Source: Myxococcales bacterium SG8_38 | Lineage (GTDB): Bacteria > Myxococcota_A > Polyangia > Polyangiales > Houyiibacteriaceae | DNA: 64,000 bases | NCBI GenBank assembly: GCA_001303415.1 | Contig: LJTN01000029.1 | Span: forward strand, 1,156 to 65,155 | Direction of reading: 5' to 3' | In this document: piece after piece, positions 33,912 to 59,704 of the stretch | Numbering within the stretch: the stretch's first letter is position 1 | Layout of the letters: each line of letters opens with the position of its first letter | The notes under the pieces: model-generated | Seen by the model: only the letters and a program-made list of their open reading frames with translations | Told to the model about the DNA's origin: nothing | The model's database searches: none | Program-made: the position numbers and the translations under genes

Positions 33912-34685
33912 GTGCAGATGCAGAGGGTCTTGGGGACGCAGGGGGGCCGCCTGTTGCTGATACTGGCCTGCTTTTCAGTGTGTCCGGTCCATCGTGTAGC
34001 CGCATTCGGCGACGCCACCGGGGTGGAGCTCGTCTCTCTCGACCTGAGCCAGGAGGTCGATGATGCACAAAACATGGCCGAACGGCTCGCGTGGGAGGTC
34101 CGCAAGCGCACCAGCGTAGAGCCAGTCTTGGAGCCCGGCCGCGCGCGCCTCGACAAGGCATCGCTCTTTCGAAGCCCCTTCCTGTATTGGCGTGGCAGCG
34201 AAGACTTTCCACCACTGAGCGAGGAGGCCATCGACGCCCTTCGAAAGTACGTCCATCGCGGAGGCTTCATCTTGATCGATGACGCCACGGCAGGCGGAGA
34301 AGCATTCGACCGTGCGGTTCGGCGGGAGCTTCTACGCGCGTTTCCCGCGCTCCCTCTCAAGGCGATTGCGTCGGATCACACCATCTATCGGTCGTTCTAC
34401 TTGCTTCAACGCCCCGTTGGGCGCGTGCAGGGCCCTGCGTTTCTCGAGGGCGTCACGTATGGAGACCGCATCGCCATCGTGTACTCGCGCCACGATCTCG
34501 GAGGTGCGTTACAGCGGGACAAGCTCGGCGCGTGGAGCCAGGCGGTCGTGCCCGGCGGAGAAGGTCAGCGCGAGCGCGCCATTCGGTTGGGCGTCAACCT
34601 CGTGCTGTACGCCCTTTGTACCGACTACAAAGACGATCAAGTGCACGCGCCCTTCATCATGAGGCGCCGGGGCGCGGGGCCCTGA
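33912..34685 (+). CDS. DUF4159-family protein (Bat/MoxR-associated)
   Basis: Signal or anchor segment, then SPFLYWRGSEDFPPLSEEAIDALRKYVHRGGFILIDD..IYRSFYLL..VYSRHDLGGA..AIRLGVNLVLYAL. This matches my recollection of DUF4159. The family assignment was not checked against any database. Confidence 0.65.
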   Translation: MQMQRVLGTQGGRLLLILACFSVCPVHRVAAFGDATGVELVSLDLSQEVDDAQNMAERLAWEVRKRTSVEPVLEPGRARLDKASLFRSPFLYWRGSEDFPPLSEEAIDALRKYVHRGGFILIDDATAGGEAFDRAVRRELLRAFPALPLKAIASDHTIYRSFYLLQRPVGRVQGPAFLEGVTYGDRIAIVYSRHDLGGALQRDKLGAWSQAVVPGGEGQRERAIRLGVNLVLYALCTDYKDDQVHAPFIMRRRGAGP

Positions 34686-34688
34686 GGT

Positions 34689-36905
34689 TTGAGCGTGTCG
34701 GATTGGGAGTGGCAGCTCGGCATCCTCGGCGGGAGCACGGCCGCTTGGGTCTTGGGTCTTGCCTTGCTGGCGTTGTGGCTCTTCGAGCTGCGATCGATTC
34801 GCGGGGAGGGGAACCCTCGGCGGCGCGTTGCGCTCGGCATGCTGGGCGGACTGGGAATTCTGGCGGTCTATCTCCTGGCGCTCCAGATCACGCTCGTTCG
34901 CGAAACCTTCGAGGAAGTGGCGGGAGGAACTGCCGTCCTGGTCGACAGCTCACGCAGCATGACGCTCTCCGGCACGAGCGGACGGAGGAGCGACGCCGTG
35001 CGCGCGCTCATCTCCGAGTGGCAACGCGACGATCGGGTGAGCCCGGCTGTCTACCTCTTCGGCTCGAGCACACGCGGCGCCGCGTGGAATGGCTTGGCCG
35101 AAGGCTACGAGCCGACGGATGACGAAACCGACATCCATCGCGCGCTGAGCTACGTGCTGGACAAGGGCACGGACCAAGACTTGGGATCGATCGTGGTCAT
35201 CACCGATGGAGCCGATGATGATTTCACCGCTGCTTCACTCGGGCTGGGATCGGTCGCGCCTGCCATTCACGCCGTCGTCGTCGGTGGTGACGATCCGCTC
35301 GACGACCAAGCGGTGGTCTCGCTTCGCGCCGATGCGACCGCGTATGTCAGTGTTCCGGCGGTAATTCGCGCCGACCTGCGGGCTGTCGGCGCATTGCGCC
35401 AAGTCGACCTTCGCGTGCAGCTCTGGCACGAAAGCCGACTCGAGCAAGAGAGCTTGGCGACTCTCGACGAGAACGGCCGGGCCACCGTCACCTTCGAGGT
35501 GATTCCCCGGCGGACTGGACGGGCCCTCTACCGCGTGTTGATTCCAGTCGCCGACAATGACGAGGTGCCCGAGAACAATGATCGTGCCGCCTTGCTCCGG
35601 GTGGGACGCGAGCGGCTACGAGCGTTGCTCGTCGCAGGAAGACCGAGCTGGGACGTACGGTTCTTGAGGGACTTCCTCAAGCGGGATGGCTCTATCGATC
35701 TCGTGTCCTTCTTCATTCTTCGCACGGCTGCAGATCTCACGGCTGCACCGACTCAAGAGCTCGCGTTGATCCCATTTCCTACCGACGAGCTGTTTCGGGA
35801 GCATTTGGGCAGCTTCGATGTGGTGATCTTTCAAAACTTCGACTACGCGCCCTACGAGATGGCCGCTTACCTTCCTCGTATCCGCGACTACGTGCAGCGT
35901 GGCGGATCCTTCGTCATGGTCGGCGGCGACCGATCGTTCGCAGAGGGCCGCTATGCAGGGACCCCCATCGAAGAAGTGTTGCCCGTCGAGCTTGGGGCAG
36001 CGAGGATCATCAAGGGGAGCTACAAGGCGGAGGTGAACGAGGCGCTTGCGAGGCATCCCATCGTGGCGCTCGGCCCCGATGCATCTCTCACGCAACAGAC
36101 GTGGAAGTCTCTTCCCAGCTTGCACGGTGCCAACGTCGTTGGTGACGTCGAGGAAGACGGACAGGTCTTGTTGCGGCACCCACGAGCCCGGCTAGGCAAC
36201 GGGAGGCCCCTACCGATTCTGGTGGTCGGCGAGGCGGGTAGAGGACGCGTCGCGGCATTCATGACCGATGCATCATGGCGTTGGCGGTTCGCGGCGGATG
36301 ATGTCACGGTCGGGTCGGACGAATACGAGCTGTTCTGGGATCGCATGATTCGCTGGCTCACGCGTGACCCGCTGCTCGAGCCTGCCAGACTCTCGACTGA
36401 CCGCGAGCGGTACGGGGTAGGGGGCGAGATGATCGTCTCGGGAAGGCTGAGAGACGAACGCTACCGGCCGATGAGCAGCGTACCGGTCGAGCTCAATTTT
36501 TCCCCCGCCACGAGCGAAGAGGCCGCGAAGGTCACCAATACCGATGCGGAGGGTGAGCTTCGCACGACGTTGCGCGCGCCCGATGCCCCAGGAGCCTACG
36601 AGATCATCGCATCGGTCGAAGACGAGGTGGTGGCGCGCGAGGTGTTCATCGTCGAGCAAAGCGGGGACGAGCTCGCGGACCTCGAGACGCGGCCCGACGA
36701 GCTTCGCGGGCTGGCGGAGCGAACCGGAGGACGTCTGTTCCTCGGTATCGAGGATGTTCCGCCGCTGTCCGAGCTTGCATCGACGAGCCGCCGTGCCGCG
36801 GGTCTCGTGTCCAAAGAGCCGCTCTCCAACCCTTGGTTCATCTTGCTCGCCATCCTGGTGCTCGGCGCCGGCTGGGTTCTGAGGAGGCGATGGGGACGCC
36901 GCTAA
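34689..36905 (+). CDS. Membrane protein: BatA_N-type double-TM N-terminus, vWA (MIDAS) domain, GATase1-like domain and C-terminal TM helix
   Basis: Two N-terminal TM helices. The MIDAS-like motif is VLVDSSRSMTLSG. ALLVAGRPSWDVRFL..FDVVIFQNFDY..GGSFVMVGGDRSF is the GATase-like fold. The C-terminal anchor is WFILLAILVLGAGWVL. TTG start. Confidence 0.7.
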   Translation: MSVSDWEWQLGILGGSTAAWVLGLALLALWLFELRSIRGEGNPRRRVALGMLGGLGILAVYLLALQITLVRETFEEVAGGTAVLVDSSRSMTLSGTSGRRSDAVRALISEWQRDDRVSPAVYLFGSSTRGAAWNGLAEGYEPTDDETDIHRALSYVLDKGTDQDLGSIVVITDGADDDFTAASLGLGSVAPAIHAVVVGGDDPLDDQAVVSLRADATAYVSVPAVIRADLRAVGALRQVDLRVQLWHESRLEQESLATLDENGRATVTFEVIPRRTGRALYRVLIPVADNDEVPENNDRAALLRVGRERLRALLVAGRPSWDVRFLRDFLKRDGSIDLVSFFILRTAADLTAAPTQELALIPFPTDELFREHLGSFDVVIFQNFDYAPYEMAAYLPRIRDYVQRGGSFVMVGGDRSFAEGRYAGTPIEEVLPVELGAARIIKGSYKAEVNEALARHPIVALGPDASLTQQTWKSLPSLHGANVVGDVEEDGQVLLRHPRARLGNGRPLPILVVGEAGRGRVAAFMTDASWRWRFAADDVTVGSDEYELFWDRMIRWLTRDPLLEPARLSTDRERYGVGGEMIVSGRLRDERYRPMSSVPVELNFSPATSEEAAKVTNTDAEGELRTTLRAPDAPGAYEIIASVEDEVVAREVFIVEQSGDELADLETRPDELRGLAERTGGRLFLGIEDVPPLSELASTSRRAAGLVSKEPLSNPWFILLAILVLGAGWVLRRRWGRR

Positions 36906-47412: not shown

Positions 47413-47441
47413 ATTTATTCATAGAATCAGGCCAAGCTCAA
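47413..47441 (-). promoter_or_regulatory. Candidate sigma70-type promoter for pilB (TTGAGC-N17-ATAAAT on the minus strand)
   Basis: The -35 is the complement of 47436-47441 and the -10 is the complement of 47413-47418, within a locally AT-rich stretch. Confidence 0.3.
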
Positions 47442-47603
47442 GTCTCATTGGGGCTAGCCGGGCTCTGAACAGCATAGCGGAGCAGCTGGAAGAGCCGGAA
47501 TTATGAGAAGAAGCGAACCGCTGGCAAACCCATCCGGGGCCCTCCCCAATTTCTCCTGCGTTTTTGGGCTGTTCCAAAACGGGCAGGTCAGCCTTGGCTT
47601 GCC

Positions 47604-48530: not shown

Positions 48531-48536
48531 ACGCGG

Positions 48537-49394
48537 GTGAGCTTGCGTACCTGGACGATTCGGGAGGTTCTCGAGTGGGCGACCGAGGACTTTGCGCGGC
48601 GGGGAATCGAGAGCCCGCGGCTCGATGCCGAGTTGCTCGTCGCCAAGGCGCTCGGCATCGATCGAGTGGGTCTGTATCTCGATTTGAATCGTCCCTTGCT
48701 GGAGCAAGAGCGGGGCCTGATACGTCCGTTGGTGGCTCGGCGACGCGAAGGAGAGCCCGTTGCCTACATCTTGGGTTACCGCGAGTTTTATGCGCGCCGC
48801 TTTTGCGTCACGCCCGACGTCTTGATCCCGCGGCCCGATACGGAGACATTGATCGATCACGCGCTCGCATGCATCCCCGTGGATGCCCCATGTCGCGTGT
48901 TGGACGTGGGCACCGGGAGTGGAGCCATCGCGATCACCATCGCCGCGGAGCGACCGTTGGCGACGGTGACCGCCACCGATCTTTCCGAGGCCGCGCTCAA
49001 GGTGGCGAGGGGCAATGCCGAGACACACGAGGTCGCAGCGCGCATCCGATTCGAGCGCGTCGACCTCGTAGCGAGCGGAGAGCAGTACGACGTGATCCTT
49101 TCGAATCCACCCTACGTGGCGAGGTCGGACATCGAGACGCTGCAGACCGAGGTGCGCGACCACGAGCCGATTGCAGCCCTCGACGGAGGCGAAGACGGCC
49201 TCGACGTGGTGAAAGCGCTGTTGACGGCCACCGAACCTGCCACCGCCCCCGGGGCTCAGATTCTGATCGAGGTCGGACAGGGCCAAGCCCAAAGCGTGCT
49301 CGACTTCGCGATCGAGGAAACCTCTTGGGAGCCCGTGGCCGTCTACAAGGACCTCAATCGAGTCGATCGGGTGGTTCACCTGCGCCGTATCTGA
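48537..49394 (+). CDS. prmC: Release factor glutamine N5-methyltransferase
   Basis: VLIPRPDTE, SAM motif VLDVGTGSGAIAI, and the NPPY motif ILSNPPYV. Confidence 0.9.
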   Translation: MSLRTWTIREVLEWATEDFARRGIESPRLDAELLVAKALGIDRVGLYLDLNRPLLEQERGLIRPLVARRREGEPVAYILGYREFYARRFCVTPDVLIPRPDTETLIDHALACIPVDAPCRVLDVGTGSGAIAITIAAERPLATVTATDLSEAALKVARGNAETHEVAARIRFERVDLVASGEQYDVILSNPPYVARSDIETLQTEVRDHEPIAALDGGEDGLDVVKALLTATEPATAPGAQILIEVGQGQAQSVLDFAIEETSWEPVAVYKDLNRVDRVVHLRRI

Positions 49395-51331
49395 CGGAGC
49401 GCGAGCTCGCTGAAGAGCAGGGTCAGCGCGAGCAAGAGCAGCCAGGGCGCGAGCGGTTGCTCGACTCCCTGCGAGGCGTCTGCTGCGGACACCTCCGCGC
49501 CGGGCTGCTCCTCCGGCGGCGATTGCGAGATCAAATCGCTCTCCCCGGACGGAGCATCGACGACGAACGCAAAGCGCTCGCCACTCACACCATTCACGAG
49601 AACTCGATAGGCTCCGATTTCGCCGGTATCCCGAAACGTGACCCGATCGGCCTCAGGGAGATCCACGGTGCGGCCGGTCGGGGTCACCACTTGAATGCGC
49701 TGGCTCGACGTCGAGCCGGGCAAGGACACCGGCTCGTAGGGCTCGATTGCGTGATCCGTGCGGCCGGCGAGCCTACCCAAGGTGTCGAGAACGAATGGAA
49801 CGAACACGGGTTGGTAAGGCAGATCGGTCCACGCGTCGTCGATCGTCGTCCCAAACATCGCCACGCGCCCGCTGCGATACCGATGCTCCACCATCGCCGG
49901 TGAGCCGTCGCTGAACCGGGCGGTCACGACTGCATCGAGGTCGGTCTCGGCGATCGGTGTGCGAGCCCGCACCTTCGCCTGATCGAGCTCGGGAAGGGTG
50001 TCTGACTTGAAGGTCAACGCCCGCTCTTCCATGCGGGTGGCCGTGTACCGTCCGGGCAGCAGCTCGCGCAGCAAGCTCCCATAGACCCGGGGATTGATGC
50101 GGTCGCCAGCCGTGATCCAAATGCTGCCACCGCCGCTCACGAATCGCTCAATGAGGGGCAGCCATTTCTCTTCGAGCGTGGCGTTTGCCAAGACCACGAC
50201 GTCCGAGCGAATGATCGCGCTTTCGGATAGGTCCTGCGCATCGAGGGTCTCGACGGCGAAGGAGCGTCCGACGAGCGGGGCAACGCCGAGCGCATGGCTC
50301 AAGAAGGCCGTCTCCCTCTTTCGTGGATCGGGATGTGGGTCGCCGTCTACGAGGAGAACGTGAATGGTGTCCGAGCCTAGGAGCACGCCGCGCACGTTGT
50401 CGGCGGGAAGGACGTCATCCGGATCGAGCCGCAGCTCCACGACTGCATCCATGAGCCTGGGCTCGACCACGAGGGTCGCTTCCCCCCGATCGCCCATCCA
50501 CCGAACCGGCGCCCTTTGCGTCTCTTGTCCTTTCTGCCGCAGGCGGATCTTCTGCGGAACCTCGGTGCCGCTGCCCTCAATCTGGACGTCGAGCCGCACG
50601 CCTTCGGCCGGTTCCGATTCCGGAGTCACGTCGACTCGCGCGATCCGGCGATTGTCGGGACTGGGCGTGGAAACCACCTCGAACCCGACGCGAATGCCGC
50701 GGCTCGGCCATTCGCACTCGTCGGCGCGCGCGCCGGGCGTGAAGTCGGATATCACCAGCAGGCGGCGGTCGGCGAGCTCGCTCTCGAGCAGAAGCTCCAC
50801 CGCGGATTGCACCGCTTCGCACAAGGCGCCGGCACGGGTCGAGCGCGCGTCCACCTCGCGCAACGCATGCTCGATCAGGTCGAGCTCGGAACGTCTTCTC
50901 ACCCAGACGCGGGGCGGGTTCCCCGCGAGGACGATCGACGCCTCAGAGCCCTCCGGAAGCTTGCCGATCTGCTCCATCGACAGCTCGGCGGCGCGCTCGA
51001 TGAGCGTCTTGCCCTCGTGTATGGCCGCCATCGACAACGAATCGTCGAACACCACGGCGAGCGCATGCTGACGATCGAGGAGACTCGAGTGGACCACGCG
51101 GTAGGGCGCCGCCGCTACCAGCACGAGGGCCGCCACGAGCAACACGCGGATGACGAGCAACAGCCAGTCGACCACCCGGAGCCGGGCTGCCCGCGTGGCG
51201 TGGATCCGTTGCAGAAACGCGATCGTTGGCAGGGTCTGCTGCGGCAGCTTTTGGCGCCGCAACAGGTGCGCCGCGATCGGAATCCCAATCGCAACCATTG
51301 CGGCGAGGGCCCATGGAAGACCGAATCCCAC
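49376..51331 (-). CDS. BatA_N-domain / vWA-like membrane protein
   Basis: The N-terminus MGFGLPWALAAMVAIGIPIAAHLLRR (aerotolerance-regulator N-terminal type) is followed by a second TM helix, a MIDAS-like motif AVVFDDSLSMA, and a C-terminal TM helix. Confidence 0.7.
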   Translation of the reverse strand: MGFGLPWALAAMVAIGIPIAAHLLRRQKLPQQTLPTIAFLQRIHATRAARLRVVDWLLLVIRVLLVAALVLVAAAPYRVVHSSLLDRQHALAVVFDDSLSMAAIHEGKTLIERAAELSMEQIGKLPEGSEASIVLAGNPPRVWVRRRSELDLIEHALREVDARSTRAGALCEAVQSAVELLLESELADRRLLVISDFTPGARADECEWPSRGIRVGFEVVSTPSPDNRRIARVDVTPESEPAEGVRLDVQIEGSGTEVPQKIRLRQKGQETQRAPVRWMGDRGEATLVVEPRLMDAVVELRLDPDDVLPADNVRGVLLGSDTIHVLLVDGDPHPDPRKRETAFLSHALGVAPLVGRSFAVETLDAQDLSESAIIRSDVVVLANATLEEKWLPLIERFVSGGGSIWITAGDRINPRVYGSLLRELLPGRYTATRMEERALTFKSDTLPELDQAKVRARTPIAETDLDAVVTARFSDGSPAMVEHRYRSGRVAMFGTTIDDAWTDLPYQPVFVPFVLDTLGRLAGRTDHAIEPYEPVSLPGSTSSQRIQVVTPTGRTVDLPEADRVTFRDTGEIGAYRVLVNGVSGERFAFVVDAPSGESDLISQSPPEEQPGAEVSAADASQGVEQPLAPWLLLLALTLLFSELALRQIRRR

Positions 51332-51334
51332 GGC

Positions 51335-52113
51335 TCAAGCCTCCCGTAGCAACTGGAGCAAGGTATGCTCGGGCGGGGTATCCGTCCTCGCGAGCATGTA
51401 TCGCCCTCCCGCGGCGACGATGCGGGCTTGGCACGAAGCCACGAACTGATCGATCGCCTCGCGGTAGCGCCTTCGAATGCCCTCTGGATCCACCTCCACC
51501 GGGCTTTCGCCCTCGAGCCCCTCGAAACGCATCGGATGCTCGAATGGCAGCTCGAGCTCCGCGGGATCGAGCACGTGAAGCACGATGGTTTGATGACCCC
51601 GCGCCTGCAGCCGCGCGATTGGCTCGAGGGCGGAGTCTTCGAGATCGAGCAGGTCGCTCGCGACGACCACCAGCCCCATTCGTCCAGCGTGCTCGATCAG
51701 CTTGTCGAGAGATTCGTGTAGAGCGGTCTTGCCCTCCGGAGCGGATGGCTGAGCCAAGACTCGCATCAAGTAGTCGAGATGTGCTGCTCCGGAGCGCGGA
51801 GGCACCCGATCGCGGACCGTTTCGTCGAACGTGATCAGGGACACGGCGTCTCCCTGACGCGTCAGCACGTAGGCAAGGGCGGCCAGCAACGTGGCGGCGT
51901 GATCGAGCTTGCTTAGGTCTTTGCTGCCCCAGTGCATCGACCGCGAGATATCGAGCGCCAGCGTGCCCCGAAGCTGCGTTTCGTGCTCGAAATGCTTGAT
52001 GGTGTACCGGTCGGATCATGCATCCCGGCGAGAAGCCCATCGACGGTCCGCTTCGCCCGGAGCGTCAATCCCGCCAGGCGTACCGCGAGCTCGGGTTCGA
52101 GCACATGGGTCAC
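51335..52113 (-). pseudogene. DUF58-family gene disrupted by an internal deletion plus frameshift
   Basis: The GTG 52113 frame gives MTHVLEPELAVRLAGLTLRAKRTVDGLLAGMH, then nonsense. A second frame from 52015 gives SDRYTIKHFEHETQLRGTLALDISRSMHWGS... to 51335. The conserved segment normally between these parts (about 30 aa ending in ..IDW...AR) is missing. The total of 779 nt is not a multiple of 3. Confidence 0.75.
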
Positions 52114-53141
52114 GGCTCGATGCTTTGCCTTATGCCTTCGATCACGTCTGCGGGCGTCACCCCTTCGGCTTCCGCGCGAAAATTCATGACGAGGCGGTGA
52201 GTCAAGATGGGCTGCACCAGCGCGCGCACGTCTTCGATCTCCGCGGCGTATCGGCCATGCAGGATCGCCCTCGCTTTGGCCCCCAATACCAGGCCCTGAC
52301 TCGCACGCGGACCTGCGCCGAACGCCACGTTCTTTCGCACGATGTCGGGAGCCTTTCGGTCCTCGGGCCGGGACGCCCGCACGAGCGCAACGGCGTGCTG
52401 CACGACGTGGTCCGCAACCGGAACGCGGGGCACCAAATCCTGAAAGCCGATGATGTCCCGGGCCGACAGCACGGGCGTGACCGTCGTGGGCATGGGCGCA
52501 GTGGTGCGCTTCACGATTTCGATCTCCTCGTGCTGGCTCGGATATCGAACGTCGATTTGAAAGAGGAACCGGTCGAGCTGCGCCTCGGGAAGAGGATAGG
52601 TGCCCTCCTGCTCGATAGGGTTCTGCGTTGCGAAGACCAAGTATGGCTGCTCCAGAGCATAGGTGTTGCCGCTAGCGGTCACTTGCCCTTCGGCCATGGA
52701 TTGCAGCAGCGCAGCCTGCGTCTTGGGTGGCGCCCGGTTTATCTCGTCCGCCAGCAGGATGTTGGTGAACACCGGACCCGGGATGAACCGAAAGTGACGC
52801 CGGCCCGTGCTCGAATCTTCCTCGAGCACATCCGTGCCGGTCACGTCGCTCGGCATCAGATCCGGCGTGAACTGAATGCGGTTCGAGTGAAGGGACAGTG
52901 CATCGGCCAGCGTGGTGATGAGCAGCGTCTTGGCCAGACCGGGCACGCCTACGAAGAGCCCGTGACCGCGAGCGAACAAGGCGATGAGCAGCAGCTCGAT
53001 CACGTCTTCCTGGCCGATGATCCGTTGCCTGAGCCGGGCGACGATTTCATCACGCGCGCTCGCGAGCTGTTGGACCCGAACCACGTCGGACGGGGGGCTG
53101 CTCGGCGCTGCAGATTGTGTGCTACGTACGGGTTCGTTCAC
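52110..53141 (-). CDS. MoxR-family AAA+ ATPase
   Basis: IIGQEDVIELLLIALFARGHGLFVGVPGLAKT (Walker A), LLADEINRAPPKTQAALL (Walker B/sensor) and ATQNPIEQEGTYPLPEAQLDRF. Confidence 0.9.
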   Translation of the reverse strand: MNEPVRSTQSAAPSSPPSDVVRVQQLASARDEIVARLRQRIIGQEDVIELLLIALFARGHGLFVGVPGLAKTLLITTLADALSLHSNRIQFTPDLMPSDVTGTDVLEEDSSTGRRHFRFIPGPVFTNILLADEINRAPPKTQAALLQSMAEGQVTASGNTYALEQPYLVFATQNPIEQEGTYPLPEAQLDRFLFQIDVRYPSQHEEIEIVKRTTAPMPTTVTPVLSARDIIGFQDLVPRVPVADHVVQHAVALVRASRPEDRKAPDIVRKNVAFGAGPRASQGLVLGAKARAILHGRYAAEIEDVRALVQPILTHRLVMNFRAEAEGVTPADVIEGIRQSIEP

Positions 53142-53178
53142 GGGGACCTCTTAGCGCTTGGATACCGGGATCGCCACA

Positions 53179-54729
53179 CTACTCGCGGAGCCCGCCTAGC
53201 CTCGAGCACAACGCCTCCTCGTGATAGGCATGTGGAAGGGGAAGCTTCGACAAGATGCAATGGGGTTGAGGGTCGAATGGATTCTGGGCGATCGCCTGCT
53301 CGGCTGCCTCCCTGGCGGGGCCGAAATTGGAAACGCGGAACTGCGCCGTGGCCAGGCTGGAAAGCGCCGGGGCATGCGTCGGATAGCGCGACAGGGTGCG
53401 CATGAGTGGCGCCAGGGCGTCCCGCGGCCTGTTTCCCGCGATCGCTGAACGGGCGTAGCGTGAGGCGACCACCGGATCGTCGGGCGCCACCTGGTGAGCC
53501 TTGGCGTACTCGACCGACGCCGCTGCAGGCCTCGAACGGGTCCACAGCAGGTCGCCCAGGCGAAGGTGGTCGCGGGCGCGGTCCAGCTCCACGCCAGCGA
53601 GCTCGTCTTGCTCGGTAGCCTCGCCGCTCAGATAGCGAGGCAACAGTCTGGCCGGCGGCGACCTCGGCTCGTCTGCCAGCTTCTTCTTCCAGCGCTTCTC
53701 GAGACCCTTCCACGAAACCCCCGAAACACGGGCGAGCGCCTCTCTGGCGTCCTGCCCGCCGCCGATTCGATCGAGGCTCTTTTGAACCCCTTCGGCCCCG
53801 AACGCTTCGTAGTAGGCGGCGATGAACGAGGAGACCTGGGCAAACGCGAGCGACGCCAGCTTCTGCGTCGGCAGCAACGCAATCGACGGGTGCAGCTGAT
53901 CGAAATCCAGAAGCTCGTTGGATTCGAGGGCCTCGTGCAGCAATTGGCTCGATGCGGGGTCGTGACGTAACGATGGCTGGTCCTGCCTCCATCGCGTCTC
54001 GAGGAACTTGGCGAGCCCTTCCTGAAGCCAAACCGGGGCGCGGTCGAGCGTTGCCTTGGTCAGCACCAGATGGATGTACTCGTGCGCGATGGTATCGAGC
54101 CAGGGGTAGCCATGCATGAGCGCGCGGGGGGACGCGATCATCAGGCGGCCCCACTTGCACAAAGCGACCGTCCCGGTGTTGCGAATGGCTTCGACCGACA
54201 AGGTGGACACCTGCGACAGCGAATCGGCATCCGGATAGATCTCGAGACGAACCGGGCTGACCATCTTCACGCCGAGCTCGAGCTCGATCGCCGAGGCCAC
54301 GGCCTTGAGCGTATCGACTGCGTAAGGGACGAGGATCTCGTCTTCTCCCGGGGAGTAACGGACTTCGAAGTTGTCGTGCGTGAACGTCTCGTAACCCTTC
54401 GTCGTTTCGTAGGTTCGCACGATCACGTCCGCCAGCGCGCCGAGATTGTTGGCGCTAGAGCCCTCGCGCAGCTCCGCGACGCCCGCCGCGGCGGCCTCGT
54501 ATTCGCCTGCAAAGTAGTCGGCCAGCACCTCGAGCTCCACGATTCGCGACGTTCGCGGATAGCGCTCGAGGTACCGCGCCACCAGCACTTGCGCGGGAAC
54601 GCCTTCGCCAGCCGCAAGCGATGCCTCGAGCAAATCCAGCACCTCGGTCCCCGTGGCTTCGTCGGCGGGGGCGGAAGTCGGCAGGGAGCCGAGCAACAAG
54701 AAGAGGCCTACGAGGACGATGGGTCTCAT
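53179..54729 (-). CDS. Secreted HExxH (peptidase MA-like) protein with C-terminal TPR repeats
   Basis: Signal peptide MRPIVLVGLFLLLGSLPTSAPA. The candidate zinc site is IAHEYIHLV with a downstream WLQEGLAKFLE. The C-terminal TPR-like helices include LRLGDLLW...YAKAHQVAPDDP. Confidence 0.65.
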   Translation of the reverse strand: MRPIVLVGLFLLLGSLPTSAPADEATGTEVLDLLEASLAAGEGVPAQVLVARYLERYPRTSRIVELEVLADYFAGEYEAAAAGVAELREGSSANNLGALADVIVRTYETTKGYETFTHDNFEVRYSPGEDEILVPYAVDTLKAVASAIELELGVKMVSPVRLEIYPDADSLSQVSTLSVEAIRNTGTVALCKWGRLMIASPRALMHGYPWLDTIAHEYIHLVLTKATLDRAPVWLQEGLAKFLETRWRQDQPSLRHDPASSQLLHEALESNELLDFDQLHPSIALLPTQKLASLAFAQVSSFIAAYYEAFGAEGVQKSLDRIGGGQDAREALARVSGVSWKGLEKRWKKKLADEPRSPPARLLPRYLSGEATEQDELAGVELDRARDHLRLGDLLWTRSRPAAASVEYAKAHQVAPDDPVVASRYARSAIAGNRPRDALAPLMRTLSRYPTHAPALSSLATAQFRVSNFGPAREAAEQAIAQNPFDPQPHCILSKLPLPHAYHEEALCSRLGGLRE

Positions 54730-57653
54730 CGCAAGAGCCTTTCGTAGTAGTCATCGACGGCCTGTTGGTAGCCCTCGGGTGGTTTGCCGTTCATCGCATC
54801 GAGCACGCGGCGCCGCCATGCGAGCTCGTCGGCCTTCGATCGTGCGCCCGGAATCTCGACTCGTTCGTGCGCGCGCATCCCGGTTGCACTTTCCTCTCCG
54901 CCGGTTCCTGCCGACCCTCTCTGCTGAGACTCGAGATGCTGCCGCAGCCGCCGGAGCTGATCGGCAGCGGCCTCCTGCTGTTTGTGCGCTTCGAGCGGAT
55001 CGCCCTCCGCCAAGGCGCTTGCCGCGCGACGCATGGGTGCTTCGATGGACTCGAGCTGCTCGGCCGCCTGCTCGGACACCGGCACGCCGCCGACTTCCTC
55101 GCGGAGCCTGCGGGCGAGCTGATGTGTCGCCTCTCGTGCTGCTTCTTGATCGCCGGCCTGTCTCTCGAGCTGTTGCCGCTCCTGCTCGGTGAGTGAGCCT
55201 GCTATGTCGGGGACCGAGCCCTGGGCGGCCTGCTGCAGATCCTGCGCCCGCGCCGCCGCTTCTCGCGCCTGCGCTGCAGCCTCTGCCGTTTGACCGCCAC
55301 GCCCCCGGAACATCATCGCCGAGAGCTCGAGGTCCTTGGCCAGCGCGTTGGCAGCGCCCGCCAAACGATTGGCCATGGAGAGAGCTTCGCCGAGATCGCC
55401 CCCCTTGAGCGCTTCCTGGAAGTCCCTGACGCGCTCTTGTGCGCGCCCGCGGAGGTCGGACTCGTAGGGACCAAGAGCCTCGTCACTGAGGCCGCCGAGC
55501 AGCTCCGAAACTTCCCTCGCCATCTTCTCGAGTTGCTCGCGGATCCCGTCTCCGAACGAGTCTGTTTCGGCAGATGCACGTTCTACGGCCTTGTCGCCGA
55601 CGCGACGCGCCTTTTCGGCCATGCGCTTTTGCTCGACCTCGAGGTCGCGAATCGTGTCCATGGCCTCCATCAATGCCCGTTCACGCGGACCAAACCGGGC
55701 CTCGACCAACGACTCTTCACTCTGCGCAAGCGCTTGCGCCATGGCTTCGATGGTCTGATCCAGCTTCATCAGCGCCGCCTCGGCGGCGTCTAGGTCGCCT
55801 TTTGCAAGCGCCTCGCGGACGCTGCGAAGCGCGTCGGTCGACTCGCTCGCCTGCCGGGATTGTCGGTTGACGAACTCTCCGGGGACGTAACGCATGGCCT
55901 CGCGAAGACGCTGCTTGAGAGCCTCCATCCGCCGCTCCGCCCGGTCGAGCGCGGCCATCAGCGCCCGCTGAAGCTCCAGCGTCTGCTCCCTGCGCAGCTC
56001 GCTGATGAGAGACGCAATCTCGCGCCGCAGCTGCTGCATTTCGCGCGCAATCTCGGCCGCATCGTCGAGGCGCGCCTCGCTGATGAGATCGGCGACGAGC
56101 AGGCTGTCTTTTTCCAACTCTGCGACGATGATTTGGTCCTGGCGCTCCCGTTGGCTCGGATGGGTGCCGTCCCGATACATCTGCTCCTCTCGCTCGTGCT
56201 TTCGCTCCAGGCGCTTTTTCATGTCGAGAAGCAGCGGAATGGTGCGCGGGCCTCGATGATCGCCCAAGCTGGACAGCAGGCCCATCACTCCGCGGTAGGG
56301 GACCATGGCCAGGCTTCGACGCTCGCGCGCTTGGGGAAGAGCCTTCGGAAGGGGGCGTTCGAGCCTCACGGCAAGCGTCCCTAACAGCGCATCCAACAGC
56401 TTCTCCAGCTCCGCGATGCTGTCACGCCGCCTCGTGATCTCGGACGCGAGAGTCAACGTGCGCTCTGCAGAGCGTCCCACTCCTGGTCCGTCCACTCGGT
56501 TGCCGTCCTTCGCTTCCAGCCAAACCGTCACCGCATCGGCGGGAGCGAGCGAAAATTCCTCCAAGCGAAGCACCGTCTCTTCGTAGTGCTCCACGCGCGC
56601 CTCGTCCGATGGGGTGATGATCGGCCGCCGGAGGTGCTCACCGTTTGGCAGCTTGATGATGAGGGTCAGCTCCTGGATGCCGTAGTCGTCGGTCGTGCTG
56701 TGTTGAAGGAGGATGGGTTGCCGCTCCTCGGCGATCAAATCCTGCTCCGGCGCGATCATCTTCACCTGAGGAGGCTCGTCTAGCTGCACCCGGATCGAGC
56801 GGGCACGGTAGTCCACACGCCGCTCTCCGCGAGTGGACTCGACGTATATTTCGAAGGGCCCGTCGCTGTCGGCGACGAACGAGGCGATGAACCCGTCTCC
56901 GGCCCGGGTCGCCTCGACGTGCCGTCCGGGTAGCTCCACGACGACTCGGGCGGCATTTCCAATCGGCGTGACCGAGTACTCGACGGCCGTTCCCCGCGGA
57001 ACGACCAGATGGTCGGCATCCCCGGCCCGCTCGTTGGGGCGAGCCATGTAATCGGGGTAGTGGAGCTCGGCGTCCGTGCGGGCCACGACGTGACCGGTGC
57101 TCGCCCCCTCGATGATGCCAGGGTCGGGATGGAGCAGTGCGTAGCGACCTGCAGCCGCCCGGTCGAAGCCAAGTGACCACCATCCGACGGCAGCCAAAAC
57201 CAAGGTCACGGCAAGGACCGGTTGCCCGAGCCAGCCCCAGGGAATGAATTTCCGCGCCGGGGAGCTCTCGAGCGAACGGAGCAAACCGAGCCGTTGTGCG
57301 ACGACCAGCTCTCGGGAAAACGACTGCTCCGCTTGAAGCTCGTATGCGCTTTGCAACGGGGAGAGCAGGGACGGCTGTTGGGTCGCGACCAGAGCGAGCG
57401 CACCGTGTCCGCGAAGCCGGAGCAGCGGTTGGATGGACCATGCCACCGCCGCCGCAATCATGCCGAACACCAGAGCCCAGCCGATGCACAGCCACACGAA
57501 GGGCGTCATGGGGCCCAGCAGCCATGCAACCAGCACGAAGGCGATCAACCCGACCGCGACTGCAGAAGCGGCAATCCGCGCCGCCATCACGGCGGCGGCA
57601 GCCACGCGCAACTGTCGGCGATAGCTCGTCAACCTATCGGTCGTGGAACCCAC
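54726..57653 (-). CDS. Large membrane protein, DUF4175-like (N-terminal TM helices, beta-rich middle, long coiled coil)
   Basis: At least three N-terminal TM helices and an extended Glu/Arg/Ala/Leu coiled coil. The C-terminus is PPEGYQQAVDDYYERLLR. ATGA overlap with the downstream HExxH gene. The DUF4175 assignment is from memory of the family and was not tested. Confidence 0.55.
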   Translation of the reverse strand: MGSTTDRLTSYRRQLRVAAAAVMAARIAASAVAVGLIAFVLVAWLLGPMTPFVWLCIGWALVFGMIAAAVAWSIQPLLRLRGHGALALVATQQPSLLSPLQSAYELQAEQSFSRELVVAQRLGLLRSLESSPARKFIPWGWLGQPVLAVTLVLAAVGWWSLGFDRAAAGRYALLHPDPGIIEGASTGHVVARTDAELHYPDYMARPNERAGDADHLVVPRGTAVEYSVTPIGNAARVVVELPGRHVEATRAGDGFIASFVADSDGPFEIYVESTRGERRVDYRARSIRVQLDEPPQVKMIAPEQDLIAEERQPILLQHSTTDDYGIQELTLIIKLPNGEHLRRPIITPSDEARVEHYEETVLRLEEFSLAPADAVTVWLEAKDGNRVDGPGVGRSAERTLTLASEITRRRDSIAELEKLLDALLGTLAVRLERPLPKALPQARERRSLAMVPYRGVMGLLSSLGDHRGPRTIPLLLDMKKRLERKHEREEQMYRDGTHPSQRERQDQIIVAELEKDSLLVADLISEARLDDAAEIAREMQQLRREIASLISELRREQTLELQRALMAALDRAERRMEALKQRLREAMRYVPGEFVNRQSRQASESTDALRSVREALAKGDLDAAEAALMKLDQTIEAMAQALAQSEESLVEARFGPRERALMEAMDTIRDLEVEQKRMAEKARRVGDKAVERASAETDSFGDGIREQLEKMAREVSELLGGLSDEALGPYESDLRGRAQERVRDFQEALKGGDLGEALSMANRLAGAANALAKDLELSAMMFRGRGGQTAEAAAQAREAAARAQDLQQAAQGSVPDIAGSLTEQERQQLERQAGDQEAAREATHQLARRLREEVGGVPVSEQAAEQLESIEAPMRRAASALAEGDPLEAHKQQEAAADQLRRLRQHLESQQRGSAGTGGEESATGMRAHERVEIPGARSKADELAWRRRVLDAMNGKPPEGYQQAVDDYYERLLR

Positions 57654-57709
57654 CTTGCAATCGTAGCAGCCGAGCCCACACGTACAGGCTCCTTTTTGGG
57701 GCAGGCCTC

Positions 57710-57744
57710 AAAACGGAAAAGCCGGGGCTTTGCAGCTCCCGGCT
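57710..57744 (-). terminator. Rho-independent terminator of groESL
   Basis: The minus strand reads AGCCGGG-agctgcaaagc-CCCGGCT followed by TTTCCGTTTT, beginning 28 nt after the groEL stop. Confidence 0.6.
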
Positions 57745-57771
57745 CTCCCTGTGTCGGCTTTTGGCGATGGG

Positions 57772-59704
<1,933 letters not shown>

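What the first reader, a model, noticed from the sequence alone, without database searches (positions are those of the whole stretch)
49376..57653. Five-gene Bat-like MoxR/DUF58/vWA operon extended by an HExxH-TPR protein and a 975-aa coiled-coil membrane protein
Five minus-strand genes have overlapping or near-abutting boundaries (ATGA at 54726-54729, GTGA at 52110-52113, 3-nt gap at 51332-51334). In order they are a DUF4175-like TM/coiled-coil giant, a secreted HExxH plus TPR protein, a MoxR AAA+ ATPase, DUF58, and a BatA_N/vWA membrane protein. MoxR-DUF58-vWA modules (the Bacteroides aerotolerance type) are widespread but have no established biochemical function. The tight coupling to a putative secreted metalloprotease and a very long coiled-coil envelope protein suggests an envelope-spanning, ATP-driven assembly or remodelling machine.
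Basis: partly seen in the sequence, partly recalled or inferred. Interest (0 to 1): 0.55.

Follow-up and report, generated by a model that had tools for sequence, protein, structure and literature searches.

The report
Conserved MoxR–metalloprotease envelope gene cluster
This is a real, strongly conserved five-gene cluster from an uncultured myxobacterium that couples a MoxR ATPase and its vWA partners to a predicted periplasmic zinc protease and a long membrane-anchored helical protein; its function is untested, and one gene (DUF58) is broken in this strain.

Summary
All five domain assignments and all stated gene junctions were confirmed: DUF4175, Peptidase_MA_2 plus TPR, AAA_3 MoxR, DUF58, and BatA_N plus VWA. 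The DUF58 gene, however, is not intact. A 97-nt deletion flanked by ATGCA microhomology removes its most conserved motif and shifts the frame. A contig from the same population still has the full 291-codon gene.

The five genes keep the same order in 49 Polyangiales/Sandaracinaceae loci, at 32–97% protein identity. The same five families also cluster in Gemmatimonadota, in a different order. In six divergent contexts the DUF4175 gene is always followed by the Peptidase_MA_2 gene, and MoxR comes next in four of them. The deep core therefore looks like DUF4175–protease(–MoxR), not a Bat operon with add-ons.

Two further homologous components lie 12.5 kb away in the window: DUF4159 and a 738-aa vWA/GATase1-like membrane protein.

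Best reading, by inference only: a cytoplasmic MoxR–DUF58 module acts on inner-membrane proteins with large periplasmic domains, and these organise or regulate a periplasmic gluzincin–TPR protease for envelope maintenance. I rate it a new variant of a known but poorly understood kind, of moderate interest.

The parts
54726..57653 (-). DUF4175-family membrane protein, 975 aa. It has three predicted TM segments (about 27-45, 52-70, 145-163) and a roughly 68-residue loop between TM2 and TM3. These are followed by two Ig/FN3-like beta-sandwiches (184-402), an A/R/E/L-rich helical region (405-913), and a conserved C-terminal YY motif.
   Evidence: Pfam DUF4175: 33.7 bits for the whole protein and 42.3 bits for residues 171-410 alone. 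AlphaFold model: pLDDT 85-90 in the beta region. Foldseek returns only generic FN3/Ig tandems. The GTG start is conserved, with synonymous variation downstream, in 13 relatives.
53179..54729 (-). Predicted periplasmic gluzincin metallopeptidase (Peptidase_MA_2) with a C-terminal TPR domain, 516 aa. It has an N-terminal signal-peptide-like segment (residues 4-22, ...SAPA/DE). The zinc-site motif is HEYIH (216-220) followed by WLQEGLA (E237). Its start overlaps the upstream stop codon (ATGA).
   Evidence: Pfam Peptidase_MA_2 52.2 bits, plus TPR_14 and TPR_19. H216, E217, H220 and E237 are invariant in 17 homologues of 65-90% identity. AlphaFold: pLDDT 82.7, pTM 0.80. Foldseek finds TPR proteins, M9 collagenases, M1 PepN and E. 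coli BepA, all at low TM-score.
52110..53141 (-). MoxR-type AAA+ ATPase, 343 aa (Walker A GVPGLAKT). It lies 37 nt downstream of the protease gene, behind a conserved AAGAGG ribosome-binding site.
   Evidence: Pfam AAA_3 196.9 bits, AAA_lid_2 57.2 bits.
51335..52113 (-). DUF58 pseudogene. The ancestral start (GTG 52113-52111) overlaps the MoxR stop. A 97-nt deletion at 52017/52018, within ATGCA microhomology at 52018-52023, shifts the frame, and a premature TAA follows at 51913-51915. The remaining in-frame ORF is 51335-51937 (200 aa). It lacks the N-terminal motif, and its ATG start (M92 of the intact protein) lies just after the DISRS MIDAS residues (87-91).
   Evidence: Three-frame translation, sequence, and alignment with L001 and L004. 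The intact 291-aa allele is on contig L066, which is identical to the window elsewhere in the cluster; the deleted allele is on L067. DUF58 aligns as a single unbroken tblastn segment covering almost its whole length in all 49 loci that span it.
49376..51331 (-). BatA_N / vWA / GATase1-like membrane protein, 651 aa. It has two N-terminal TM segments joined by a basic loop (7 K/R, 0 D/E), a vWA domain with MIDAS DDSLS (96-100), a GATase1-like middle region, and a C-terminal TM anchor (627-645). The large domain is predicted to be periplasmic.
   Evidence: Pfam BatA 47.7 bits and VWA_2 34.5 bits; NCBIfam TIGR02226 43.4 bits. It is 28% identical over its full length to the Gemmatirosa orthologue, which matches GATase1_like. 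The topology matches what was shown experimentally for BB0173 (PMC5700661).
57710..57749 (-). GC-rich hairpin plus U-run directly after groEL. It is probably the groESL terminator and separates the cluster from groESL transcription.
   Evidence: Fold of 57654-57771: -52.4 kcal/mol, z = -3.3. Four relatives have an equivalent hairpin plus U-run at the same place, with different stem sequences. The consensus scan missed it; its predicted stem, with a bulged base and a shorter inner helix, does not fit the scan's simple stem-loop pattern.
57660..57668 (-). Conserved TGCTACGAT motif, resembling an extended -10 element, ending 6 nt before the GTG start of the DUF4175 gene. It is a candidate promoter, and the mRNA may be leaderless.
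   Evidence: The TGCTA core, usually followed by C, holds the same position in all 13 relatives inspected, and there is no Shine-Dalgarno sequence. This is inference only.
33912..34685 (+). DUF4159 protein, 257 aa, with a signal-peptide-like N-terminus. It is a probable unlinked component: its homologue sits immediately upstream of MoxR in Gemmatimonadota clusters.
   Evidence: Pfam DUF4159 144.2 bits. tblastn of the L070 DUF4159 protein hits window 34062-34619, E 3e-8. DUF4159 lies next to MoxR in L068 and L070.
34689..36905 (+). 738-aa membrane protein with a MIDAS-like DSSRS motif, a GATase1_like domain, an Ig-like domain and a C-terminal TM segment. It starts 3 nt after the DUF4159 gene and is a probable second vWA/GATase1-like component.
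   Evidence: Pfam GATase1_like 55 bits. It is 29% identical over 716 aa (E 2e-34) to the 758-aa protein encoded about 2 kb upstream of the MoxR cluster in L069. A homologue lies about 3.5 kb upstream of MoxR in L070.

Best explanation
What it is (high confidence). This is a vertically inherited chromosomal cluster of an uncultured Polyangiales-type myxobacterium. It probably has its own promoter just after the groESL terminator. It encodes, in order:
- a DUF4175-family inner-membrane protein with a large, predicted periplasmic part made of Ig-like and helical domains;
- a Sec-exported gluzincin (Peptidase_MA_2) with a TPR domain;
- a cytoplasmic MoxR AAA+ ATPase;
- a cytoplasmic vWA-like DUF58 protein;
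- a BatA_N-anchored membrane protein with predicted periplasmic vWA and GATase1-like domains.

In this strain DUF58 has been knocked out by a recent 97-nt microhomology deletion. A DUF4159 gene and a second vWA/GATase1-like gene 12.5 kb away probably belong to the same system.

How it most likely works (inferred, moderate to low confidence). MoxR hexamers, recruited through the DUF58 vWA/MIDAS adaptor, use ATP on the only cytoplasmic surfaces of the membrane partners. These surfaces are the basic BatA_N hairpin loop and the roughly 68-residue TM2-TM3 loop of the DUF4175 protein. This assembles or remodels a periplasmic scaffold of vWA MIDAS domains, GATase1-like domains and the DUF4175 Ig-plus-helical stalk. 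The scaffold docks the TPR domain of the protease and controls its zinc-dependent activity. The protease is the only predicted enzyme on the periplasmic side. The output would be processing or quality control of envelope proteins, comparable in architecture to BepA. With DUF58 broken, this strain's system is probably impaired or running in a reduced mode.
For: Shown:
- All domains are above Pfam cut-offs.
- The catalytic H-E-H-E residues are invariant and also present in the Gemmatirosa homologue.
- MIDAS DxSxS motifs are present in intact DUF58 and in the BatA-vWA protein.
- Start and stop codons overlap or nearly abut.
- 49 loci keep the same five-gene order at protein identities down to 32-50%.
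- The same five families, plus DUF4159 and a second vWA/GATase1-like protein, are clustered in a different order in Gemmatimonadota.
- DUF4175 is followed by Peptidase_MA_2 in 6 of 6 divergent contexts, and MoxR comes next in 4 of 6.
- Predicted topology places MoxR and DUF58 in the cytoplasm and the bulk of the other three proteins in the periplasm. This agrees with the experimentally determined periplasmic vWA domain of the BatA-type protein BB0173 (PMC5700661).

From established knowledge:
- MoxR ATPases act with vWA cofactors as chaperone-like remodellers; for example, ViaA binds RavA and stimulates its ATPase.
- RL3499 of the MoxR-proper subfamily is needed for membrane integrity and cell morphology (PMC3893208).
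Against: - There are no experimental data for any member of this cluster type, and no co-folding could be run.
- Predicted TM helices 1-2 and the TM2-TM3 loop of the DUF4175 protein (residues 75-142, the proposed contact) are modelled with low to marginal confidence: pLDDT is below 50 for residues 75-181.
- That loop is only moderately conserved across the wider family.
- Foldseek similarity of the protease to BepA is weak (TM about 0.2), and BepA belongs to a different peptidase family.
- A natural DUF58-null allele exists in the population. Clusters L073 and L076 have no adjacent DUF58 or BatA gene. So DUF58 may be dispensable, or the modules may be separable.
- Bat-type mutants in other bacteria have given diffuse or no phenotypes: Leptospira bat deletions did not support an oxidative-stress role (PMC3557215).
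Confidence: 0.45

Rival explanations
1. Assembly or maturation chaperone for a static structure. MoxR and DUF58 act once, during biogenesis. They would load the MIDAS metal or fold and insert the vWA proteins and the DUF4175 protein into a passive envelope scaffold or tether. The peptidase would only process a partner proteolytically during assembly. There would be no ongoing ATP-regulated activity.
For: The literature consensus is that MoxR proteins mature specific complexes, such as methanol dehydrogenase, NorQ/NorD and CoxD (PMC3893208). MoxR has been proposed to coordinate the metal ion in Bat MIDAS domains (PMC3557215). The Ig-like plus long helical architecture of the DUF4175 protein looks structural.
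Against: The vWA domains of the BatA-type proteins are predicted to be periplasmic (PMC5700661). A cytoplasmic ATPase therefore cannot reach their MIDAS sites after export. The fully conserved catalytic site of the protease, and its obligate pairing with DUF4175 in 6 of 6 contexts, suggest it is a central effector rather than an accessory.
Confidence: 0.25
2. Two independent modules that merely sit side by side. A DUF4175-protease pair and a MoxR-DUF58-BatA 'Bat-like' module would have unrelated functions, and shared synteny in one clade would give a false impression of an operon.
For: DUF58 and BatA are not adjacent in L073, L074, L076 and L077. MoxR is absent next to the pair in L074 and L077. 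A 37-nt gap separates the protease gene from moxR in the window.
Against: MoxR directly follows the pair in 4 of 6 divergent contexts. All five families are clustered in a rearranged order in a second phylum (L068, L070), which synteny inertia cannot explain. The order has been kept in 49 loci at identities down to 32-35% for the DUF4175 and BatA-vWA proteins.
Confidence: 0.12
3. A decaying, non-functional locus in this genome. On this reading the DUF58 frameshift is the first step in losing the system, so the cluster here does nothing.
For: The 97-nt frameshifting deletion removes the conserved RxYxxGD..IDW motif and separates the MIDAS residues from the remaining ORF. The deleted allele appears in two assemblies (window and L067).
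Against: The other four genes are intact and are 100% identical at the nucleotide level to the contig carrying the intact allele. The event is therefore very recent and polymorphic, not long-term decay. The window and L067 may derive from the same read set, so the allele frequency is unknown.
Confidence: 0.1
4. A MoxR-vWA conflict (anti-phage or NTP-dependent defence) system of the kind defined around the bpMoxR domain.
For: The MoxR protein matches Pfam bpMoxR (PF20030) at 38 bits, above its 27-bit cut-off.
Against: AAA_3 scores 196.9 bits on the same region. No vWA-beta-propeller partner is present. None of the five proteins hits PADLOC. The neighbourhood is stable and made of housekeeping genes (groESL, prmC, pilB, pyrC), and inheritance is vertical across 49 loci.
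Confidence: 0.03

Closest known systems
Bacteroides aerotolerance (Bat) cluster and its spirochaete counterparts (B. fragilis batA-E with upstream moxR and DUF58; Borrelia bb0170-bb0176; Leptospira bat genes)
   Same: A MoxR AAA_3 ATPase is followed by DUF58 and then by a BatA_N-anchored vWA protein with a MIDAS motif. TPR-containing and large membrane proteins are encoded in the same cluster. The vWA domain faces the periplasm (PMC5700661; PMC3557215).
   Different: There is no BatD, no SH3 domain and no second tandem BatB. The TPR domain is fused to a gluzincin peptidase. The large membrane protein belongs to the DUF4175 family (Ig-like plus helical). The BatA-type protein is about twice as long, with GATase1-like and C-terminal TM parts. 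The gene order puts DUF4175 and the protease first.
Rhizobium leguminosarum RL3499-RL3502 (MoxR, DUF58, two vWA membrane proteins)
   Same: The MoxR-DUF58-vWA membrane core is the same. The reported phenotype (membrane integrity, cell morphology) matches the envelope role proposed here (as summarised in PMC3893208).
   Different: The four-gene composition of that operon is recalled from my own knowledge; the paper read here describes only RL3499. As recalled, it has no peptidase and no DUF4175 gene. I did not examine its sequences.
E. coli RavA-ViaA (MoxR ATPase plus vWA cofactor)
   Same: It is a model for how a MoxR hexamer uses a vWA/MIDAS cofactor as an adaptor to membrane-associated targets. 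ViaA binds RavA, stimulates its ATPase, and partly localises to the membrane (PMC3893208).
   Different: RavA belongs to a different MoxR subfamily. The partners differ (LdcI, Nuo), and no periplasmic components or protease are involved.
E. coli BepA (YfgC), a periplasmic M48 metalloprotease with a C-terminal TPR domain
   Same: The architecture and compartment are the same: a Sec-exported HExxH zinc protease fused to TPR repeats. BepA appears among the Foldseek hits (6sar, 6ait). From my own knowledge, BepA performs outer-membrane protein quality control.
   Different: The peptidase family differs (M48 versus Peptidase_MA_2; no M48 Pfam hit). TM-scores are only about 0.2. BepA is not encoded with MoxR, vWA or DUF4175 genes.
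Gemmatimonadota clusters (Gemmatirosa kalamazoonensis plasmid 1, NZ_CP007129, 728831-747454; metagenomic L070), uncharacterised
   Same: All five families are clustered, and the proteins are detectably homologous. The BatA-vWA proteins are 28% identical over their full length (E 1e-28). The DUF4175 beta regions are 27% identical (E 9e-14). The peptidase cores are 37% identical around PVRLExY...HExxH...WLxEGL.
   Different: The order is TPR/Peptidase_MA_2, DUF4159, MoxR, DUF58, BatA-vWA, DUF4175. The protease is larger (872-882 aa) with TPR repeats on both sides. The DUF4175 protein is 1268 aa. DUF4159 and the second vWA/GATase1-like gene are adjacent rather than 12.5 kb away.

Membership tests
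MoxR AAA+ ATPase (Pfam AAA_3) | AAA_3 ATPase core with P-loop, plus the AAA_lid_2 domain | tested here: met
   AAA_3 196.9 bits (cut-off 27) and AAA_lid_2 57.2 bits. The Walker A sequence GVPGLAKT is read from the sequence.
MoxR-vWA pairing (general MoxR system) | A vWA/MIDAS cofactor gene next to the ATPase gene | tested here: met
   DUF58 (a vWA-like protein, ancestrally with DISRS) overlaps the MoxR stop codon. BatA-vWA with DDSLS follows.
DUF58 (PF01882) | A full-length domain including the N-terminal R-x-Y-x-x-GD...IDW motif and the DxSxS MIDAS motif | tested here: not met
   In the window only profile positions 48-210 of 216 are encoded in an ORF. The motif-coding 97 nt are deleted and the frame is shifted. 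The feature is met by the allele on L066 and by all 49 related loci.
BatA-type protein (PF07584 / TIGR02226) | An N-terminal double-TM BatA domain followed by a vWA domain with a MIDAS motif | tested here: met
   BatA 47.7 bits, TIGR02226 43.4 bits, VWA_2 34.5 bits. There are two TM peaks and a basic loop, and the MIDAS motif is DDSLS at 96-100.
Canonical Bat operon (B. fragilis type) | BatB (second vWA), BatC and BatE (stand-alone TPR; SH3) and BatD proteins in the cluster | tested here: not met
   None of the five proteins gave a BatD or SH3 Pfam hit at E <= 0.01, and the beta region gave none at E <= 5. TPR repeats occur only fused to the peptidase. A second vWA-like protein exists but lies 12.5 kb away.
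DUF4175 (PF13779) | A match to the family profile beyond the low-complexity helical part | tested here: met
   The whole protein scores 33.7 bits, covering profile positions 3-768 of 825. Residues 171-410 alone score 42.3 bits on profile positions 178-393. There are 1147 representative relatives, and the top hits align across all of residues 1-410.
Gluzincin metallopeptidase (Peptidase_MA_2, PF13485) | An HExxH motif plus a downstream Glu as third zinc ligand, conserved among orthologues | tested here: met
   52.2 bits (cut-off 32.4). The motif reads HEYIH-x16-E within WLQEGLA. H216, E217, H220 and E237 are invariant in 17 sequences.
Gluzincin metallopeptidase (Peptidase_MA_2, PF13485) | Proteolytic activity | not testable with these tools
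   This needs a biochemical assay.
BepA / peptidase M48 | The M48 catalytic domain | tested here: not met
   There is no Peptidase_M48 hit. BepA appears only as a weak Foldseek match (TM about 0.2). The resemblance is one of architecture only.
MoxR-vWA-beta-propeller ternary conflict systems (bpMoxR) | A vWA protein and a beta-propeller partner, in a defence-island context | tested here: not met
   No beta-propeller domain was found in any cluster protein. PADLOC gave no hits. The neighbours are housekeeping genes.

The most novel reading that the evidence does not exclude
DUF4175 protein, Peptidase_MA_2/TPR protease and MoxR form a previously unrecognised, widely distributed trans-envelope module. 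In it, a cytoplasmic AAA+ ATPase controls a periplasmic zinc protease through a three-TM transducer bearing Ig-like domains and a helical stalk. The module is present in Myxococcota and Gemmatimonadota, and the DUF4175-protease pair recurs in further unassigned metagenomic lineages. DUF58, BatA-vWA, DUF4159 and GATase1-like proteins would be optional scaffold subunits. If so, this would give the first concrete effector activity to the long-enigmatic 'Bat/MoxR-DUF58-vWA' systems.
Probability: 0.25. Interest if true: 0.7.

Novelty: new variant of a known kind. Interest (0 to 1): 0.42.

Why it matters
MoxR-DUF58-vWA ('Bat-type') clusters occur in many bacterial phyla. They have been linked to aerotolerance, stress resistance, envelope integrity and virulence, yet no biochemical activity or substrate is known. 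This variant ties the module to the one partner with a predictable chemistry, a zinc protease with an intact active site. It also ties it to DUF4175, a family with more than a thousand representative clusters and no known role. The tight DUF4175-protease pairing across divergent lineages gives a concrete hypothesis that can be tested genetically. A cultured organism, Gemmatirosa kalamazoonensis, carries the cluster; Sandaracinus amylolyticus is a further candidate that I did not check. The natural DUF58-null allele shows that the gene can be lost in the wild, at least transiently.

Tried and rejected
- **Possible sixth gene.** The 493-aa minus-strand ORF 47898-49379, whose start overlaps the BatA-vWA stop, was considered and rejected. 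It is antisense to two plus-strand genes with Pfam support that are conserved in relatives: PrmC (48537-49394) and a TM/TPR protein (47604-48530). Its translation looks like junk.
- **Alternative start for the DUF4175 gene.** Gene callers chose a 953-aa form starting at an internal ATG. I rejected this because the GTG at 57653 is conserved with synonymous third-position changes downstream, and the ATG codon is not conserved.
- **Sigma-54 promoters.** I looked for them by eye in the groEL/DUF4175 and protease/moxR spacers. By eye, the GG-to-GC spacing is off by one in the first spacer, and the second spacer lacks a -12 element.
- **Consensus scans.** The sigma-70 scan found nothing. The terminator scan missed the groEL hairpin; its bulged stem with an inner helix does not fit the scan's simple stem-loop pattern.
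- **Rfam.** No hit anywhere in the window.
- **NCBIfam.** No specific model for the DUF4175 or DUF58 proteins.
- **PADLOC.** No hits.
- **Foldseek on the DUF4175 model.** Only generic Ig/FN3 matches, nothing for the helical part.
- **tblastn against plasmids.** A single hit, to Gemmatirosa, which proved useful.
- **The listing of cluster members.** Taxon names came back for only one of 20 representatives, an Elusimicrobia MAG. The phyla of L072-L077 therefore remain unassigned.
- **Literature.** 'DUF4175' occurs in four papers. The two versions of one A. baumannii study (the one I read) concern only the N-terminal region of AdvA; the other two, on barley and corals, I did not open. One search was wasted on the place name 'Bata'.
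- **L066 versus the window.** The 33 mismatches looked at first like strain divergence. All of them fall in groEL near the contig end, so they are not evidence about the cluster.

Full report
**1. Checking the observation**

The region holds four clean minus-strand ORFs: 54726-57653 (975 aa, GTG), 53179-54729 (516 aa, ATG), 52110-53141 (343 aa, GTG) and 49376-51331 (651 aa, GTG). The stated junctions are real:
- ATGA at 54726-54729, where the stop of gene 1 overlaps the start of gene 2;
- GTGA at 52110-52113, where the MoxR stop overlaps a GTG;
- a 3-nt gap at 51332-51334.

Pfam recovers every predicted domain above its gathering score: DUF4175 33.7 bits; Peptidase_MA_2 52.2 bits plus TPR_14 and TPR_19; AAA_3 196.9 bits plus AAA_lid_2; DUF58 105.9 bits; BatA 47.7 bits plus VWA_2 34.5 bits. 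NCBIfam adds TIGR02226. The weak whole-protein DUF4175 score is not a low-complexity artefact, because residues 171-410 alone score 42.3 bits on profile positions 178-393.

**2. The DUF58 gene is broken**

The stretch 52113 to 51335 is 779 nt, which is not a multiple of three. The frame opened by the GTG at 52113 ends at TAA 51913-51915. The DUF58 frame has a TGA at 52017-52015, and its first start codon after that is the ATG at 51937. This leaves a 200-aa ORF that matches only profile positions 48-210 of 216.

Alignment with two relatives shows a clean 97-nt gap in the window directly after ...GGGATGCAT. The gap removes the codons for RSPHRGASAIFKEHRAYRPGDDPRLIDWRAYAR, the most conserved DUF58 motif. 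The residual ORF begins at M92, just after the DISRS MIDAS residues (87-91), so it lacks them too.

The exact MoxR protein is found on two public contigs. L066 (ENA ERZ27279932, 66 kb) carries an intact 291-aa DUF58. L067 (Logan SRR29904085) carries the 200-aa remnant. L067 is 100% identical to window 46110-58252. L066 differs from the window only by the 97 nt and by 33 mismatches that all lie in groEL near the contig end. The two BLAST segments overlap by 6 nt at 52018-52023 (ATGCA[T/C]), which is the microhomology flanking the deletion.

The lesion is therefore very recent, and both alleles exist in assemblies. The window and L067 may come from the same reads, so the allele frequency is unknown. 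In all 49 related loci that span the gene, DUF58 aligns as a single unbroken segment covering almost its whole length, typically residues 1-290 of 291.

**3. Organism and neighbourhood**

The closest homologues are labelled Polyangiales, Myxococcales, Sandaracinaceae or 'delta proteobacterium' MAGs, and none is cultured. Upstream on the same strand lies groEL (57772-59403). Downstream and convergent lie prmC (48537-49394) and a TM/TPR gene (47604-48530), followed by a pilB-like ATPase and pyrC.

The 118-nt groEL/DUF4175 spacer folds into a strong GC-rich hairpin followed by a U-run (57710-57749; -52.4 kcal/mol, z = -3.3). Four relatives have an equivalent hairpin plus U-run with different stem sequences. 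The cluster is therefore probably transcribed separately from groESL.

A conserved TGCTAC(G/A)NT motif ends 6 nt before the conserved GTG start, and there is no Shine-Dalgarno sequence. This suggests an extended -10 promoter and a leaderless transcript, but it is inference only. The moxR gene has a conserved AAGAGG ribosome-binding site in its 37-nt spacer.

**4. Co-conservation**

A scan of species-representative genomes with a profile of the protease returned 60 loci, all from Myxococcota. I ran tblastn with the five proteins against these loci, using the intact DUF58 protein of the related locus L001. Forty-nine loci contain all five genes in the same order and on the same strand. The other loci are cut by contig ends, with two exceptions: L064 lacks the DUF4175 gene and most of the protease gene, and L058 has a moxR fragment on the opposite strand at its contig start.

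In the most distant Sandaracinaceae-type loci, protein identity falls to 32-38% for the DUF4175 protein, 41-50% for the protease and 32-36% for BatA-vWA.

**5. Beyond the clade**

tblastn of the DUF4175 protein against plasmids gave one hit, on the 1.1-Mb plasmid 1 of Gemmatirosa kalamazoonensis, phylum Gemmatimonadota. ORF and Pfam analysis of that locus, L068, gives this order:
- TPR / Peptidase_MA_2 / TPR, 872 aa;
- DUF4159;
- MoxR;
- DUF58;
- BatA_N / vWA / GATase1_like, 683 aa;
- DUF4175-like, 1268 aa.

Pairwise BLASTP confirms homology for the protease core (37% over 93 aa, including PVRLExY, HExxH and WLxEGL), the DUF4175 beta region (27%, E 9e-14) and BatA-vWA (28% over the full length, E 1e-28). 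Metagenomic Gemmatimonadota contigs repeat the arrangement: L070 includes the protease, while L069 lacks it.

An exhaustive HMMER search with residues 1-410 of the DUF4175 protein found 1147 representative clusters with E <= 1e-3 and 210 with E <= 1e-10. Most are 950-1050 aa, and the top-ranked ones align across the whole 410-residue query. One representative is labelled Elusimicrobia. I retrieved six divergent contexts:

| Locus | Gene order |
|---|---|
| L072 | DUF4175, protease/TPR, MoxR, DUF58, BatA-vWA, convergent prmC |
| L073, L076 | DUF4175, protease, MoxR, GHL10 |
| L075 | DUF4175 (1696 aa), protease, MoxR (cut by the contig end) |
| L074 | DUF4175, protease/TPR, glycosyltransferase |
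| L077 | DUF4175, protease/TPR/PEGA, unknown protein |

DUF4175 is thus followed by Peptidase_MA_2 in 6 of 6 contexts, and MoxR comes next in 4 of 6. DUF58 and BatA are adjacent in only one of the six, in addition to the main clade. The most persistent unit is the DUF4175-protease pair, usually with MoxR.

**6. A second locus in the window**

Two plus-strand genes, 12.5 kb from the cluster, are separated from each other by 3 nt:
- 33912-34685: DUF4159, 144 bits, with a signal-peptide-like N-terminus;
- 34689-36905: a 738-aa protein with N-terminal hydrophobic segments, a DSSRS MIDAS-like motif, GATase1_like (55 bits), a weak Ig-like match and a C-terminal TM segment.

Both have homologues in or just upstream of the MoxR cluster in Gemmatimonadota. 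The 738-aa protein is 29% identical over 716 aa (E 2e-34) to the 758-aa protein of L069. The L070 DUF4159 protein hits the window at 34062-34619 with E 3e-8. They are plausible additional components. They are not within 10 kb of the cluster in the other Myxococcota loci.

**7. Anatomy of the proteins**

*DUF4175 protein.* Hydropathy gives TM segments at about 27-45, 52-70 and 145-163. The N-terminus and the 75-142 loop carry net positive charge, so both are probably cytoplasmic and residues 165-975 periplasmic. The AlphaFold model (mean pLDDT 71.9) shows several parts:
- a low-confidence region with pLDDT below 50 from residue 75 to 181, spanning the TM2-TM3 loop and TM3, with only marginal confidence (about 50-60) for TM1-2;
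- two confident beta-sandwiches at 184-402, pLDDT 85-90;
- helices of about 20-60 residues from 405 to 913;
- a short C-terminal helical motif.

Foldseek finds only FN3/Ig tandems such as CbhA Fn3 and SiiE. Across 117 divergent family members, the best-conserved parts are the C-terminal 35 residues (R947, P959, Y969, Y970, L973) and acidic/Gly-Pro positions in the beta domains (D292, P295, D322, D323, D383, G389, P390). The latter are possibly a Ca-binding site, which is speculation.

*Protease.* It has an N-terminal hydrophobic segment ending in SAPA/DE and no twin-arginine motif. The model has pLDDT 82.7 and pTM 0.80. It shows an N-terminal helical repeat, an alpha/beta gluzincin core (114-353), a disordered linker (364-381) and TPR helices (382-510). 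H216, E217, H220 and E237 are invariant. Foldseek returns TPR proteins, M9 collagenases, M1 PepN and E. coli BepA, all at low TM-score.

*BatA-vWA.* It has two N-terminal TM segments around a loop with 7 K/R and no D/E, a MIDAS motif DDSLS, a GATase1-like middle region (weak DUF7408 and Glyco_hydro_42M matches here, GATase1_like in the Gemmatirosa orthologue) and a C-terminal TM segment with an RRR tail. This is the topology shown experimentally for Borrelia BB0173, whose vWA domain is periplasmic (PMC5700661).

*MoxR and intact DUF58.* Neither has a convincing TM segment. The single hydropathy peak in MoxR (residues 47-65) lies at the start of its AAA+ domain.

**8. Mechanism**

Shown: gene content, conservation, intact catalytic and MIDAS motifs, and predicted topology.

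Inferred: MoxR hexamers use DUF58 as a vWA adaptor, by analogy with RavA-ViaA (PMC3893208). They act on the short cytoplasmic loops of the BatA_N hairpin and the DUF4175 protein. The periplasmic vWA, GATase1-like, Ig and helical domains form a scaffold that docks and regulates the TPR-bearing protease. The protease then processes or degrades envelope proteins.

Envelope phenotypes of related MoxR-proper systems fit this direction; RL3499 affects membrane integrity and morphology. Cytoplasmic zinc loading of the protease by MoxR is unlikely, because the protease carries a Sec-type rather than a Tat-type signal. That conclusion comes from reading the sequence, not from a predictor.

Weaknesses are the lack of any experiment, low model confidence for the cytoplasmic loop, a viable DUF58-null allele, and clusters without adjacent DUF58 or BatA genes.

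**9. Comparison with known systems and novelty**

The MoxR-DUF58-BatA core is the known Bat-type or MoxR-proper arrangement (PMC5700661, PMC3557215, PMC3893208). The cluster fails membership of the canonical Bat operon because it has no BatD, no SH3 domain and no stand-alone TPR protein. It is not a bpMoxR conflict system: there is no beta-propeller and no PADLOC hit. BepA is an analogue in architecture only.

In the searchable literature I found no description of a link between DUF4175, Peptidase_MA_2 and MoxR. DUF4175 appears in four papers. The two versions of one A. baumannii study, which I read, concern only the N-terminus of AdvA; the other two, on barley and corals, I did not open.

I therefore rate this a new variant of a known kind. 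The comparative evidence is solid and the mechanism is untested. It is still well above routine, because the protease link makes a long-standing puzzle testable.

Noticed in passing
window 33912-36905 (+): A DUF4159 gene (257 aa) and a 738-aa vWA-like/GATase1_like membrane protein gene, separated by 3 nt. Both are homologues of genes that lie in or just upstream of the MoxR cluster in Gemmatimonadota. They are probably unlinked components of the same system.
   Followed up: partly
window 52017/52018, with L066 and L067: The 97-nt DUF58 deletion is polymorphic. An otherwise identical public contig (ENA ERZ27279932 k141_4560308) has the intact gene, and a Logan contig from SRR29904085 has the deletion. 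The deletion is flanked by ATGCA microhomology.
   Followed up: yes
window 57654-57771 (-): There is a conserved terminator-like hairpin after groEL. A conserved TGCTAC(G/A)NT motif ends 6 nt before the GTG start of the DUF4175 gene, and no Shine-Dalgarno sequence is present. Together these suggest a leaderless mRNA.
   Followed up: partly
window 36980-42289 (+): A 1769-aa ORF with ABC_tran, UvrA_inter and UvrA DNA-binding domains. From my own knowledge of UvrA's usual size, this is about twice as long as a normal UvrA, so it may be a duplicated or fused UvrA paralogue.
   Followed up: no
window 32005-32101 (-): ARAGORN calls a 97-nt tRNA-Met, which from my own knowledge is unusually long for a bacterial tRNA. 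It may carry an insertion or be a false positive. Rfam gave no hit at gathering score anywhere in the window.
   Followed up: no
window 21216-24997 (+) and 45672-47396 (-): A PilQ-like secretin with AMIN, STN and Secretin domains is followed by a fused shikimate kinase / 3-dehydroquinate synthase gene. A PilB-like T2SSE ATPase lies 20 kb away. These are type IV pilus genes scattered around the cluster.
   Followed up: no
window 25740-29848 (-): A zinc-ribbon/TPR protein (783 aa) is immediately upstream of, and overlaps by 4 nt, a Peptidase_S49 (SppA-like) gene (586 aa). This is a second TPR-plus-protease pairing in the same window.
   Followed up: no
L064 (CP070650.1, Myxococcales bin861), around locus position 10001: This is the only related locus where just the last ~100 residues of the protease are detectable and no DUF4175 gene is found upstream, while MoxR, DUF58 and BatA are intact. 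It could be a rearrangement, a deletion or a masked stretch.
   Followed up: no
L073 and L076: In two divergent contexts the DUF4175-protease-MoxR triad is followed by a GHL10 (glycoside-hydrolase-like) gene instead of DUF58 and BatA. This hints at an alternative partner linked to the cell wall or polysaccharide.
   Followed up: no
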